A stretch of DNA of 57,935 bases from a virus. Lineage: Duplodnaviria; Caudoviricetes. Location: the IMG/VR virus record IMGVR_UViG_3300025575_000016, positions 1 to 57,935 of that record; one strand, 5' to 3'. Positions 18,753-20,855 of this stretch are shown here, one piece after another. The stretch's first letter is position 1. Each line of letters begins with the position of its first letter. The translations under genes and the position numbers were made by a program. A model generated the notes under the pieces. That model saw only the letters and a list, made by a program, of their open reading frames with translations. It had not been told where the DNA came from and ran no database searches.

Positions 18753-18781
18753 TTGACAATTAAATAATAATATTATACAAT
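18753..18781 (+). promoter_or_regulatory. SigA-like promoter upstream of the tracr/CRISPR/cas12f cassette
   Basis: TTGACA 18753-18758, 17 bp, TACAAT 18776-18781; the spacer is an 18-bp motif copy. Confidence 0.75.
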
Positions 18782-18855
18782 GTAATTGTTAGGAGAAATA
18801 ATTAAAGGATACTATGAGGGTGTAAAAGCCCTCTATAATTAAAAGATAATATTAA

Positions 18856-19026
18856 AGGTTGATTTACCAACCTAGAATCTGAGAAGTACCTTTAAAGGAT
18901 TGATATACAAAGGCAACTCTCGATAATACCTCCAATCTATAAACGGTTGGGAAAAGATTGTGTGAGACTAGATTTTATCTTAGGTTGCACAATGATACAT
19001 CAAAGTCAAATGGCTTGGTAACAGTA
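18856..19026 (+). ncRNA. Putative Cas12f tracrRNA 1 (cognate to array 1)
   Basis: Hairpin AGGTTG-ATTTAC-CAACCT, whose loop ATTTA complements repeat end TAAAT; GAGAAGT...ACTCTCGAT stem; ATACATC (18995-19001) complements repeat GATGTAT; homologous to 19180-19336. Confidence 0.75.
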
Positions 19027-19169
19027 GTTGAATATTAACATGAGATGTATTTAAATGATATAGTTTTTGTATCATTGTATTGATCTGCATAAGTTGAATA
19101 TTAACATGAGATGTATTTAAATGTTACAGTTCTAGCAAAATTCCAACTTAGTGCATAGTTGATTTAAAT
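19027..19169 (+). CRISPR. Mini-array 1: repeat GTTGAATATTAACATGAGATGTATTTAAAT (clostridial type I-B-like); 2 full repeats, 1 internally deleted, 2 spacers
   Basis: Identical 30-mers at 19027-19056 and 19093-19122; spacers of 36 and 35 bp; remnant GTTGATTTAAAT at 19158-19169. Confidence 0.9.
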
Positions 19170-19179
19170 ATAAAAATAA

Positions 19180-19336
19180 AGGGTGATTCTCCATCCTAAA
19201 ATCGAGAAAGTGGATTGAATCTAAATCAATACTCTCGATAAGCCTTCTAGTCTTACAGGCTGGTAAAGTCTATACAAATGTGATATCGCAAGGCGTATAG
19301 GAATTTATACTATTTTAGAGCATTGATATTACTATA
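19180..19336 (+). ncRNA. Putative Cas12f tracrRNA 2 (cognate to array 2)
   Basis: Hairpin AGGGTG-ATTCTC-CATCCT, whose loop ATTCT complements repeat end AGAAT; ATCGAGAAAGT...ACTCTCGAT stem; AATTTATACTAT (19302-19313) is the exact complement of repeat ATAGTATAAATT. Confidence 0.8.
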
Positions 19337-19497
19337 GTTCTAATAGGACATAGTATAAATTAGAATGGTAATTTAATATGAAAAAGAATTAAGAGAATCA
19401 CGTTCTAAAAGAACATAGTATAAATTAGAATTAAGAGAAGCGGATTAACAGTTAATGTATTTTGCACATTCTAATAGAACATATCATAAATTAAAAA
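19337..19497 (+). CRISPR. Mini-array 2: consensus GTTCTAATAGAACATAGTATAAATTAGAAT; 3 repeats (last degenerate), 2 spacers
   Basis: Repeats at 19337-19366, 19402-19431 and 19468-19497; spacers of 35 and 36 bp. Confidence 0.85.
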
Positions 19498-19514
19498 ATA
19501 AAGGGGATTAATAT

Positions 19515-20855
19515 ATGAACAAGTGTATAAAAATTACTATAAAAAATTGCGAAGAAATAGATAAAAGAGCCTTAAATAAAAAATTATGGGATATAAGGTG
19601 TAAAACTGCATTAGCATGTAATAAAGCTATTACATGGATGTTTACTTTTGCTCAAGAAAATATGGATTATAAAACTTTAACAGGTAAGAGTATTAATGAA
19701 AAAGAAAGATTTGGGAAGTCTCATGGTTCATGGATAGAAAATAGAATGAATGAGATTATGGAAATTTGTAATAGTGCAAATGTAGCACAAACAAGACAAT
19801 TTGTTACTAATAGATTTAATGATGATAAAAAGAAGGGAGTATTTAAAGGAGAAGTTTCTATTTCTAATTTCAAGAAAACAATACCTATAATTATTCATAA
19901 CAAAAACTTCAAAATATCTCAAGGAAATAGTGGATATGAAGTGGAAATGAGTTTATTTAATAGAGGATATCAGAAAGAAAACAATATTAAAAGACTCATA
20001 TTGAATATTGATAAATTAGGATCTAGTGAAAAATCAATTCTCAATAGAATAATTTCTGGTGAGTATAAACAAGGATCTGCTCAAATAACAGAGGATAAAA
20101 AAAGAAAGGGAAAATGGTATCTGACAATAAGTTTTAGTTTTGAATCTCAAAAAATAGAAAATTTAGATATTAATAGGATTTTAGGTGTGGATTTAGGAAT
20201 AGTAAATACAGCAACTATGCAAGTTTATGACTCTAGTACAGAAAAATGGGACAGGTTAAATTGGAAGGAGTGTATAATAAATGGACAAGAATTGATTCAT
20301 TTTAGACAAAAGATTGAAGCAAGGAAAAGACAATTGCAAATAGCCAGTAAATGTGTAGGAGAAGGGAGAATAGGTCATGGTATTCACACTAGAATGAAGC
20401 CATTAGAAAGAATGAATGATAATATTTCTAAGTTTAGAGATACATTTAATCATAAGGTTAGCAAATATATAGTTGATATGGCAGTTAAATACAATTGTGG
20501 CATGATACAAATGGAAAATTTAAGTGGATTCAGTGAACAACAAACCGAAAGTTTATTAAAAAATTGGAGTTACTTTGATTTACAAGCTAAAGTTAAATAT
20601 AAGGCTGAGGAAAAGGGAATTTATATTAATTTTATTAATCCTCAATACACTTCTAAAAGATGTTCTTCTTGTGGATGTATTCATAAAGATAATAGAGATT
20701 GTAAAAGCAATCAAGCAAAGTTCAAATGTGTTGTATGTGGGCATGAAGAAAATGCAGATACTAATGCTGCTAAGAATATTTCAATTCCAGATATTGAGAA
20801 CATAATAAAAGAACAACTAGAGTTAAATAAGAAAGTTGATTTAAAAGTTTCTTAG
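19515..20855 (+). CDS. cas12f: Cas12f1-like (type V-F, TnpB-derived) RNA-guided nuclease, 446 aa, RuvC triad intact
   Basis: RuvC-I GVDLG, RuvC-II QMENL, Zn finger CSSC...CVVC, RuvC-III NADTNAA. Colinear with AsCas12f1 as recalled (RIISGEY, KWYL.IS, GHG..R.KP, FRDT.NH, NW.Y.DLQ.K..YKAEE.GI, PQYTS). Adjacent arrays and tracr-like RNAs. Confidence 0.88.
   Translation: MNKCIKITIKNCEEIDKRALNKKLWDIRCKTALACNKAITWMFTFAQENMDYKTLTGKSINEKERFGKSHGSWIENRMNEIMEICNSANVAQTRQFVTNRFNDDKKKGVFKGEVSISNFKKTIPIIIHNKNFKISQGNSGYEVEMSLFNRGYQKENNIKRLILNIDKLGSSEKSILNRIISGEYKQGSAQITEDKKRKGKWYLTISFSFESQKIENLDINRILGVDLGIVNTATMQVYDSSTEKWDRLNWKECIINGQELIHFRQKIEARKRQLQIASKCVGEGRIGHGIHTRMKPLERMNDNISKFRDTFNHKVSKYIVDMAVKYNCGMIQMENLSGFSEQQTESLLKNWSYFDLQAKVKYKAEEKGIYINFINPQYTSKRCSSCGCIHKDNRDCKSNQAKFKCVVCGHEENADTNAAKNISIPDIENIIKEQLELNKKVDLKVS

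What the first reader, a model, noticed from the sequence alone, without database searches (positions are those of the whole stretch)
18753..20855. Phage-encoded Cas12f served by two tandem tracrRNA + mini-array modules with different repeat families
Seen: promoter (18753-18781), a ~170-nt scaffold, array 1 (repeat GTTGAATATTAACATGAGATGTATTTAAAT), a second homologous ~157-nt scaffold, array 2 (repeat GTTCTAATAGAACATAGTATAAATTAGAAT), then one 446-aa nuclease with intact RuvC D/E/D and Zn finger. All are on one strand within 2.1 kb, in the phage nucleotide-metabolism arm, with no cas1/cas2/cas4 and no tnpA. Known: Cas12f1 effectors use a tracrRNA plus crRNA, usually one tracr and one repeat type per locus. 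Inference: one mini-nuclease loads two distinct guide scaffolds, each hard-wired to its own array, giving the phage about 4 guides against competing elements or host loci. Because each tracr is directly 5' of its first repeat, each unit may be transcribed as a natural single-guide RNA, resembling an intermediate between TnpB omegaRNA and split tracr/crRNA. I am not aware of this dual-module layout being described but cannot check the literature.
Basis: partly seen in the sequence, partly recalled or inferred. Interest (0 to 1): 0.95.

Follow-up and report, generated by a model that had tools for sequence, protein, structure and literature searches.

The report
Phage Cas12f with two guide cassettes
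A temperate phage carries a miniature CRISPR nuclease (Cas12f) served by two different helper-RNA-plus-guide cassettes, one of which copies the repeat of its host's own CRISPR system; a few relatives share this layout, and I did not find it in print.

Summary
Window 18753-20855 holds, on one strand: a phage consensus promoter, tracrRNA-like scaffold 1, mini-array 1, scaffold 2, mini-array 2, and an intact 446-aa Cas12f1 of the AsCas12f clade.

- **Each scaffold fits its own repeat.** A 5' hairpin loop pairs with the last bases of the repeat (ATTTA/TAAAT in module 1, ATTCT/AGAAT in module 2). This rule holds in 38 of 43 and 36 of 43 related modules, with 0 of 5000 permutations reaching it in each set.
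- **The layout recurs.** Two or more cassettes occur in 8 of 139 related entries.
- **Array 1 uses the host repeat.** Its repeat matches the clostridial type I-B repeat; the 3' 20 nt are identical to the commonest repeat in 5 of 7 host array loci read. Array 2's repeat is private.
- **Array 2 has targets.** Both its spacers match non-array contigs in another peat metagenome, each preceded by 5'-TCA, a published clostridial I-B PAM.

Most likely this is a type V-F1 weapon against a rival mobile element, with spacers supplied by host I-B adaptation. Not shown: RNA expression, cleavage, PAM, target identity. Module 1's anti-repeat is weak. This scan has noted the same layout before on other DNA; four literature searches found no description.

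The parts
18753..18781 (+). Promoter of the cassette: -35 TTGACA, 17-nt spacer, -10 TACAAT. It is one copy of a phage-wide promoter motif.
   Evidence: 11 of 12 consensus positions, the best site in 18500-21000; the 22-nt core occurs 19 times in the window at up to 3 mismatches (0.06 expected). The 13 + strand copies lie at 3166-21444 and the 6 - strand copies at 31069-57884, matching gene direction.
18782..18852 (+). 5' leader between the promoter and scaffold 1. It holds a hairpin at 18816-18833. Its role is unknown.
   Evidence: Read directly. Unassigned.
18853..19026 (+). tracrRNA-like scaffold 1. Stem 1 is 18857-18872, with loop ATTTAC at 18862-18867 (the pseudoknot partner of the repeat tail TAAAT). 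The weak anti-repeat GATACATC lies at 18994-19001.
   Evidence: Scaffold HMM hit at 18853-18954, E 3.3e-10. Loop-to-tail pairing of 5 bp. The fold shows four stems in the same order as scaffold 2, and the cis fold pairs 18994-19001 with repeat bases 19044-19051. Best duplex energy with its own repeat is only -9.8 kcal/mol.
19027..19169 (+). Mini-array 1. Repeats at 19027-19056 and 19093-19122; spacers at 19057-19092 (36 nt) and 19123-19157 (35 nt); collapsed terminal repeat at 19158-19169. The repeat is the clostridial type I-B repeat.
   Evidence: matches in 162 of 385 scored Clostridiaceae genomes, many with tens to more than 100 copies; 1-3 mismatches to host repeats; the commonest repeat is identical in the 3' 20 nt in 5 of 7 host array loci; such arrays flank a complete type I-B operon in genome G081.
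19177..19336 (+). tracrRNA-like scaffold 2. Stem 1 is 19181-19196, with loop ATTCTC at 19186-19191 (the partner of the repeat tail AGAAT). The anti-repeat lies at 19301-19322.
   Evidence: Scaffold HMM hit at 19177-19259, E 1.5e-12. Loop-to-tail pairing of 5 bp. Anti-repeat to repeat duplex -18.1 kcal/mol or -15.0 kcal/mol, against -11.1 kcal/mol with repeat 1. Inverted repeat I4.
19337..19497 (+). Mini-array 2. Repeats at 19337-19366, 19402-19431 and a degenerate one at 19468-19497; spacers at 19367-19401 (35 nt) and 19432-19467 (36 nt). The repeat is private and not found as a host array.
   Evidence: 63 of 394 Clostridiaceae genomes have only 1-2 weak hits each; 1 of 399 genomes of the class; the same repeat type lies directly upstream of cas12f in L186 (82% identical Cas12f), with different spacers; both spacers match contigs of run X2.
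19515..20855 (+). cas12f, 446 aa, type V-F1, AsCas12f clade. RuvC residues D226, E334 and D415 and the CxxC...CxxC zinc ribbon are intact.
20853..20881 (+). Next copy of the phage promoter motif, placed right at the cas12f stop codon. The cassette therefore sits between two promoter copies 2100 nt apart.
   Evidence: (D7: 22 nt, 95% identical, spacing 2100).

Best explanation
This is a type V-F1 CRISPR-Cas12f cassette carried as a promoter-to-promoter insert in the nucleotide-metabolism arm of a temperate phage.

**How it is probably transcribed and loaded (inferred).** A phage consensus promoter probably drives one transcript: tracrRNA 1, array 1, tracrRNA 2, array 2, cas12f. The single Cas12f binds the conserved stems that both tracrRNAs share. 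Each tracrRNA picks its own crRNAs through two contacts. The first is a pseudoknot between its first hairpin loop and the last 4-5 bases of the repeat. The second is an anti-repeat near its 3' end.

**What it is probably for (inferred).** This gives up to four guides. At least array 2 is aimed at another replicon that is abundant in the same kind of habitat, so the cassette most likely serves conflict between mobile elements.

**Where the spacers probably come from (inferred).** The phage has no adaptation genes in the half that is held. Spacers are most likely written by the host's type I-B Cas1-Cas2-Cas4. The evidence is that array 1 uses the host I-B repeat, spacers are 35-36 nt, and both known protospacers carry the I-B-type 5'-TCA flank.

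**Shown by sequence:** the parts, their homology, the co-variation and the protospacers.
**Inferred only:** transcription, processing, loading of both RNAs by one protein, cleavage, PAM and the source of the spacers.
For: **The protein is a Cas12f1**
- phmmer matches solved AsCas12f chains at E 9e-85 to 2.6e-83. Pfam TNB domain and NCBIfam hits agree. The catalytic and zinc residues are invariant.

**The scaffolds are family members**
- An HMM built from scaffolds of relatives finds both window copies (E 3.3e-10 and 1.5e-12).
- It finds at least one copy beside cas12f in 54 of 59 entries and in 60 of 80 metagenome loci.

**Loop-to-tail co-variation**
- 38 of 43 distinct modules have 4 or more contiguous pairs. 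The mean is 4.27 against 3.17 +/- 0.12 when tails are permuted; 0 of 5000 permutations reach it.
- Repeated on metagenome loci: 36 of 43, mean 3.95 against 3.25 +/- 0.10, 0 of 5000.
- More than ten compensatory pair types occur, for example CTTA/TAAG, CTCG/CGAG, CTTC/GAAG, CTCT/AGAG and TTCCA/TGGAA.
- A preprint (passages read) states that Cas12 tracrRNAs typically form a pseudoknot with the repeat's 3' end.

**Anti-repeat specificity**
- Own pairs average -16.8 kcal/mol against -13.7 +/- 0.38 permuted; 0 of 300 permutations reach it.

**Recurrence of two or more modules**
- Window, L018, L093 and L102 by HMM, and L013 (Alicyclobacillus phage MMB025) by eye.
- L216, L228 and L238.

**Link to type I-B**
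-.
- A published preprint hypothesises that V-F1 borrows I-B adaptation and shares its PAMs (passages read).
- Clostridial I-B uses 30-nt repeats, 36-nt spacers and PAMs that include 5'-TCA (Pyne 2016, passages read).

**Targets**
- A 30,808-nt contig of run X2 matches spacer 19367-19401 with 0 mismatches and 1 inserted A.
- A 3,384-nt contig of X2 matches 19432-19462 with 1 mismatch.
- The flanks are not repeats, and both 5' flanks end in TCA.

**Spacer turnover**
- L186 has the array-2 repeat type but different spacers.
Against: - Module 1's anti-repeat is weak: -9.8 kcal/mol with its own repeat against -8.4 kcal/mol with repeat 2. Its pairing rests mainly on the 5-bp pseudoknot and an 8-bp stretch seen by eye and in the MFE fold.
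- No RNA run holds the locus, so transcription, processing and loading are not shown.
- Both array-2 spacers differ from their targets by a 1-nt homopolymer length change. This could weaken targeting, or it could reflect assembly error.
- The PAM of this Cas12f is unknown. TCA rests on two protospacers only.
- The targets could not be fetched or named.
- No protospacer was found for the array-1 spacers.
- The record is about 48% of the phage, so adaptation genes elsewhere cannot be excluded.
- The scaffold search covered the cas12f strand only, so 'same strand' is true by construction.
- The host is not identified.
Confidence: 0.8

Rival explanations
1. Module 1 does not serve Cas12f. It is a virus-borne mini-array read by the host's own type I-B Cas6/Cascade, as described for viral mini-arrays. 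Scaffold 1 would then be a decaying duplicate.
For: - The array-1 repeat differs from host I-B repeats by 1-3 bases, with the same 64-67 nt spacing.
- A review (passages read) says that viral mini-arrays carry host-identical repeats.
- Module 1's anti-repeat is weak.
Against: - Scaffold 1 keeps all conserved stems and a perfectly complementary 5-bp loop.
- Sixteen other Cas12f loci carry this repeat type, within 3 mismatches in the 3' 20 nt.
- Of those, L020, L024, L027, L097 and L099 each gave a single scaffold hit whose loop pairs with that repeat's tail. The clade therefore uses I-B-like repeats natively.
- The collapsed terminal repeat leaves spacer 1b without an intact downstream repeat for Cas6.
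- The two uses do not exclude each other.
Confidence: 0.12
2. One of the two modules is a dead remnant of a tandem duplication. The system works with a single tracrRNA and array, as in most relatives.
For: - Most relatives have one module: 131 of 139 entries gave fewer than two scaffold hits.
- The terminal repeats are degraded.
- In L018 the two scaffolds are each other's nearest relatives at 80% identity, which points to in-place duplication.
Against: - The window's two scaffolds are only 60% identical, yet they keep the same stems. Each also carries compensatory changes that fit its own repeat. Neutral decay would not produce that.
- Divergent dual modules recur in eight loci whose Cas12f is 36-69% identical to the window's.
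Confidence: 0.07
3. The gene is a transposon TnpB with a 3' omegaRNA, and the repeats are incidental.
For: - The NCBIfam guided_TnpB subfamily model scores 152 bits against a cut-off of 100.
- Public records name relatives 'transposase'.
Against: - No Y1 transposase is present in the record.
- No scaffold hit lies downstream of the gene; a promoter and the next phage gene follow at once.
- Real CRISPR repeats with spacers, matching tracrRNAs and protospacers are present.
- The best structural relatives are Cas12f1 proteins.
Confidence: 0.01

Closest known systems
Type V-F1 CRISPR-Cas12f1 of the former V-U3 group (AsCas12f1, PDB 8J12/7WJU/8DZJ; Karvelis 2020, PMC7229846, passages read)
   Same: - A 400-500 aa effector with a RuvC domain and a zinc ribbon.
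- A tracrRNA plus crRNA.
- No adaptation genes.
- Found in Clostridia and Bacilli.
- A pseudoknot between the tracrRNA and the repeat's 3' end.
   Different: - Two divergent tracrRNA-plus-array cassettes in tandem serve one effector.
- It is carried by a phage under a phage promoter.
- One array uses the host type I-B repeat.
- The inferred PAM side is TCA. I recall the AsCas12f PAM as T-rich and did not check it.
Virus-borne CRISPR mini-arrays (review PMC11656645, passages read)
   Same: - One or two spacers.
- A repeat that matches the host CRISPR system (array 1).
- A presumed role in competition between mobile elements.
   Different: - The phage brings its own effector and tracrRNAs.
- Array 2's repeat was not found in the hosts searched.
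- No match was found in 16 related virus records.
Proposed V-F1 and type I-B partnership (PAMPHLET preprint 10.1101/2024.04.09.587696, passages read)
   Same: - A V-F1 system without adaptation genes.
- An I-B-like PAM at its protospacers.
- Spacer lengths typical of I-B.
   Different: - The passages I read base the case on co-occurrence and predicted PAMs in bacterial genomes.
- Here the repeat itself is shared, a tracrRNA is fitted to it, and the system sits on a phage.
Earlier notes of this scan on other DNA (e1-1968375, e1-5923097)
   Same: A phage Cas12f with two or more tracrRNA-plus-mini-array cassettes, each matched to its own array.
   Different: - These concern other genomes.
- They are AI notes, not publications.
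- I did not re-test their loci.

Membership tests
Type V-F1 CRISPR-Cas12f | Small effector with a C-terminal split RuvC domain and zinc-ribbon (TNB) domain, homologous to characterised Cas12f1 | tested here: met
   - PDB AsCas12f chains match at E about 1e-84.
- PF07282 scores 71.7 bits against a cut-off of 26.3.
- D226, E334, D415 and four cysteines are invariant.
Type V-F1 CRISPR-Cas12f | CRISPR array next to the effector gene | tested here: met
   There are two arrays within 500 nt upstream. Rfam CRISPR-DR3 hits both array-1 repeats.
Type V-F1 CRISPR-Cas12f | tracrRNA with an anti-repeat and a pseudoknot to the repeat's 3' end | tested here: met
   - This was tested at sequence level only.
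- Loop-to-tail pairing is 5 bp in both modules, and the family-wide co-variation supports it.
- The anti-repeat is strong in module 2 and weak in module 1.
Type V-F1 CRISPR-Cas12f | No cas1, cas2 or cas4 in the locus | tested here: met
   - Cas1 and Cas4 gave no match in the 57.9-kb record.
- Cas2 was not searched.
- The record is about half of the phage.
Type V-F1 CRISPR-Cas12f | Guide-dependent dsDNA cleavage next to a 5' PAM | not testable with these tools
   The only indirect evidence is two protospacers that share a 5'-TCA flank.
IS200/IS605 TnpB with omegaRNA | Transposon context: tnpA or transposon ends, and a guide RNA overlapping the 3' end of the gene | tested here: not met
   - No Y1 transposase is present.
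- No scaffold hit lies downstream of the gene.
- A promoter and the next phage gene follow the stop codon.
Virus-borne mini-array that exploits host Cas proteins | Repeat identical or nearly identical to the host CRISPR repeat | tested here: met
   - Array 1 meets it: 1-3 mismatches over 30 nt to arrays of Clostridiaceae genomes.
- Array 2 does not.
Virus-borne mini-array that exploits host Cas proteins | No effector of its own on the virus | tested here: not met
   An intact cas12f lies directly downstream.
Type I-B CRISPR array | 30-nt repeat, 35-37-nt spacers, and the cas6-cas8b-cas7-cas5-cas3-cas4-cas1-cas2 operon | tested here: inconclusive
   - The repeat and spacer lengths fit.
- In genome G081 the same repeat type flanks a full I-B operon.
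- The window has no Cas1 or Cas4. Other I-B genes were not searched for in the window.

The most novel reading that the evidence does not exclude
Crosstalk between the phage's V-F1 system and the host's type I-B system may run both ways.

- **Reading the host.** tracrRNA 1 is fitted to the part of the repeat (the 3' 20 nt) that is identical in host I-B arrays. The phage's Cas12f could therefore load crRNAs transcribed from the host's own large I-B arrays. That would turn the host's whole immune memory to the phage's use.
- **Being written by the host.** The host's I-B adaptation proteins could write new spacers into the phage's arrays.
- **A private channel.** The second, private cassette would then be a channel that the host's Cas6/Cascade cannot read or compete for.
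Probability: 0.25. Interest if true: 0.85.

Novelty: new variant of a known kind. Interest (0 to 1): 0.64.

Why it matters
- **A natural design for multiplexing.** One miniature nuclease appears to work with two divergent guide scaffolds. The short contacts that set scaffold-to-repeat specificity (a 4-5 bp pseudoknot plus an anti-repeat) can be read directly from natural co-variation. That is a design rule for orthogonal or multiplexed Cas12f guides.
- **A testable answer to an open question.** How type V-F1 systems without adaptation genes obtain spacers is unresolved. Here the V-F1 array carries the host type I-B repeat, I-B spacer lengths and I-B-type PAM flanks, which makes the question directly testable.
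- **A phage-borne case with visible targets.** The system sits on a phage, and its targets can be seen in environmental data. That bears on how phages fight rival mobile elements.

Tried and rejected
**Spacer targets**
- No credible match in INPHARED phages: best E was 0.3 or worse, and one search hit only the cas12f gene.
- No match in 16 related IMG/VR records (L019 was not held), in 5 genomes, elsewhere in the window at up to 9 mismatches, or in about 265 fetched loci at up to 7 mismatches.
- Exact 26-nt scans of IMG/VR for spacers 2b and 1a found 0. The same 2b string in the metagenome collection found 0.
- In the large family searches only 2 candidates per genome were scored, so spacer matches there could have been missed.
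- Spacers 1b and 2a were not scanned in the collections.

**RNA evidence**
- No RNA holder was listed.

**Variants without the cassette**
- One search lists joints 18774 to 20854 and 18854 to 20854. The shorter side is only 20 letters and lies in the 19-copy promoter motif. I do not count these as evidence of a cassette-less variant.
- Depth differences between contigs in X1 were not interpreted.

**Origin of the two scaffolds**
- On about 100 aligned columns the window's two scaffolds are not nearest neighbours, while those of L018 are.
- The tree is too short to decide between old duplication and separate acquisition.

**Promoters and terminators**
- Promoter-like sites in 18500-21000 are no more frequent than in shuffles (17 against 17.8).
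- No + strand terminator was found.

**Target identity**
- Reading the 30-letter flanks by eye, the spacer-2b target is open in one frame and shows an H-x-L-R-H motif. I recall this motif as typical of tyrosine recombinases.
- The spacer-2a target covers an apparent start codon.
- Neither reading was checked with any tool. The flank letters are not stored sequence, so I did not type them.

**Rows left out**
- About 100 loci matched only the C-terminal half (TnpB-like, 24-37% identity) and were not scanned for scaffolds.
- Some loci in the viral and metagenome sets are the same contigs (L213/L023, L219/L026, L197/L016), so the two co-variation tests are not fully independent.

**Supplements**
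- Supplementary files of papers were closed. PAM tables and guide RNA sequences of AsCas12f and its relatives may bear on the TCA question.
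Full report
**What is there.** The window is an IMG/VR virus record of 57,935 bp, linear and about 48% complete, with about 30% G+C. 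Genes run on the + strand up to about 24.7 kb and on the - strand after that. Around the finding lie:
- a ribonucleotide reductase large subunit with an intein;
- a dCTP deaminase/dUTPase-like protein;
- a guanylate kinase;
- a weak ThyX-like protein;
- 2 kb downstream, a large serine recombinase.

**The cassette, part by part.**
- *Promoter.* The site at 18753-18781 is the best promoter-like site in 18500-21000. Its 22-nt core is one of 19 copies in the window (0.06 expected by chance), all co-directional with the genes. Another copy sits at the cas12f stop codon, 2100 nt further on. The CRISPR unit therefore fills one promoter-to-promoter slot.
- *Arrays.* Array 1 has two identical 30-nt repeats. 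Array 2 has three copies, of which the last is degenerate. By direct reading, 19158-19169 is a collapsed third repeat of array 1, made of its first 5 and last 7 bases.
- *Effector.* The 446-aa ORF is a Cas12f1. It matches solved AsCas12f chains at E 9e-85 to 2.6e-83 over residues 14-435, with more distant Cas12f structures after them. It also matches Pfam Cas12f1-like_TNB. D226, E334, D415 and four cysteines are invariant in a 40-sequence alignment.
- *Absent genes.* Cas1, Cas4 and Y1 transposase models find nothing in the record.

**The two scaffolds are tracrRNAs of this clade.**
- The protein family is large: 542 proteins at E 1e-30 or better, mostly named transposase or TnpB.
- I collected loci from IMG/VR, genomes, phage records and metagenomes.
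- An HMM started from the window's two scaffolds and those of L009 and L010, then iterated, finds a scaffold beside cas12f in 54 of 59 near-full-length entries and in 60 of 80 metagenome loci.
- The scaffold lies either upstream or downstream of the gene and is followed by an array. I searched the cas12f strand only.
- The tracr-array-cas12f order is therefore ordinary in this clade and is not a sign of a TnpB intermediate.
- The window's scaffolds share 114 of 190 aligned columns and fold into the same series of stems.

**Each scaffold fits its own repeat.**
- *Pseudoknot contact.* In the HMM alignment, the 6-nt loop of the first hairpin is complementary to the last bases of the repeat that follows it. 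In the window the pairs are ATTTA/TAAAT (module 1) and ATTCT/AGAAT (module 2).
- Across relatives, 38 of 43 distinct modules have 4 or more contiguous pairs. The mean is 4.27 against 3.17 +/- 0.12 for permuted tails, and 0 of 5000 permutations reach it.
- On metagenome loci the figures are 36 of 43, 3.95 against 3.25 +/- 0.10, and 0 of 5000. The two sets overlap in part.
- More than ten compensatory pair types occur. Some of the misses come from my crude repeat boundaries, for example L093-downstream and L100.
- This matches the pseudoknot that a preprint describes as typical of Cas12 tracrRNAs (passages read).
- *Anti-repeat contact.* Own pairs average -16.8 kcal/mol against -13.7 +/- 0.38 permuted, and 0 of 300 permutations reach it.
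- Module 2 is strong (-15.0 to -18.1 kcal/mol; anti-repeat at 19301-19322). Module 1 is weak (-9.8 kcal/mol, no better than cross pairs). Its only clear stretch is 8 bp between 18994-19001 and the repeat.

**The dual layout recurs.** Two or more scaffolds, each with its own array, are found in eight entries:

| Locus | Layout |
|---|---|
| Window | two modules in tandem, upstream of cas12f |
| L018 | two in tandem, downstream |
| L093 | one upstream and one downstream, with different repeats |
| L102 | two upstream, with different repeat families |
| L013 (Alicyclobacillus phage MMB025) | two upstream; the second seen by eye |
| L216 | two downstream; only the second is followed by a multi-copy array |
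| L228 | two upstream |
| L238 | three cassettes |

- That is 8 of 139 entries, with some redundancy among the single-module entries.
- In L018 the two scaffolds are nearest relatives (80% identical). In the window they are not.
- Earlier notes of this scan describe the same layout on other DNA.
- Literature searches found no description: 0 papers; 1 irrelevant paper.

**Array 1 carries the host's type I-B repeat.**
- Searching 401 Clostridiaceae genomes with the array region gave matches in 162 of the 385 that were scored. The top matches all fall on the repeat, at 92-97% identity, and many genomes have tens to more than 100 copies.
- In G081 such arrays flank cas6, cas8b, an unassigned ORF, cas5b, cas3, cas4, cas1b and cas2.
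- Host repeats differ from the window's by 1-3 bases. In 5 of 7 host array loci the commonest repeat is identical over the 3' 20 nt, which is the part that holds both tracrRNA contacts. Spacing is 64-67 nt.
- Sixteen other Cas12f loci use this repeat type.
- Array 2's repeat was not found as an array in 394 genomes of the family or 399 of the class.
- It is, however, the cas12f-proximal repeat in L186, the closest relative fetched (82% identical Cas12f), and there it carries different spacers.

**Targets.**
- Most searches for protospacers failed (see Tried and rejected).
- Laying contigs of two peat-metagenome runs on the locus showed the following in run X2, which is from a different study than the probable source run:
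  - a 30,808-nt contig (depth 31) matches spacer 2a with no mismatch and one extra A;
  - a 3,384-nt contig (depth 34.5) matches 31 nt of spacer 2b with one mismatch, and by my reading runs on after a one-T length difference.
- The flanks are not repeats, so these are protospacers.
- Both 5' flanks end in TCA, one of the PAMs published for clostridial type I-B (passages read).
- X2 also holds pieces identical to the phage at depth 2.5-2.9.

**Reading.**
- The best-supported account is a phage-borne V-F1 system with two cognate tracrRNA/array cassettes for one nuclease. It is aimed at a co-resident replicon, and its spacers come from host I-B adaptation.
- That last point is the hypothesis of the PAMPHLET preprint for V-F1 in general (passages read).
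- Expression, loading, cleavage, PAM and target identity remain untested.

Noticed in passing
window 3166-57884 (19 sites): The 22-nt motif inside the cassette promoter occurs 19 times at up to 3 mismatches. It always points the same way as the genes, so it looks like a phage-wide promoter family.
   Followed up: partly
window 19158-19169: Array 1 ends in a collapsed repeat made of the first 5 and last 7 bases of the repeat. Scaffold 2 begins right after it.
   Followed up: no
window 19385-19397 and 19427-19439: The same 13-14 nt stretch occurs inside spacer 2a and across the junction of repeat 2b and spacer 2b (D6 and D10). This may be chance or a recombination scar.
   Followed up: no
window 10816-14181: The ribonucleotide reductase large subunit carries an intein splicing domain.
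   Followed up: no
window 18774/18854 to 20854: Contigs of runs X1 and X2 appear to join the promoter copy before the cassette to the copy after it. The shorter side is only 20 letters and lies in a repeated motif. This could be a cassette-less phage variant or a false join.
   Followed up: no
L010 3939-5298 (same contig as L026 and L219): In this relative (64% identical) the cas12f reading frame is split into at least two ORFs (3989-4717 and 4834-5298). Its tracrRNA and array look intact.
   Followed up: no
L216 3899-4160: By eye, the first scaffold is followed by what looks like a single repeat-like unit, one spacer-length stretch and a hairpin with a T run. This may be a natural single-guide unit.
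   Followed up: no
L238 1-3700: Three tracrRNA-plus-mini-array cassettes surround one cas12f: one upstream, one directly downstream and one about 2 kb further on, beyond another ORF.
   Followed up: partly
L011 (Bacillus phage Mgbh1) and L013 (Alicyclobacillus phage MMB025): Both isolated phages annotate their Cas12f homologue as a transposase. Mgbh1 has a tracr-like region and two repeats upstream of gp53. The MMB025 record marks only one of its two arrays, and on the opposite strand.
   Followed up: partly
window 18782-18852: A 70-nt leader lies between the promoter and scaffold 1. It holds a GC-rich hairpin (18816-18833) and a three-codon mini-ORF behind an AGGAG. Its role is unknown.
   Followed up: no
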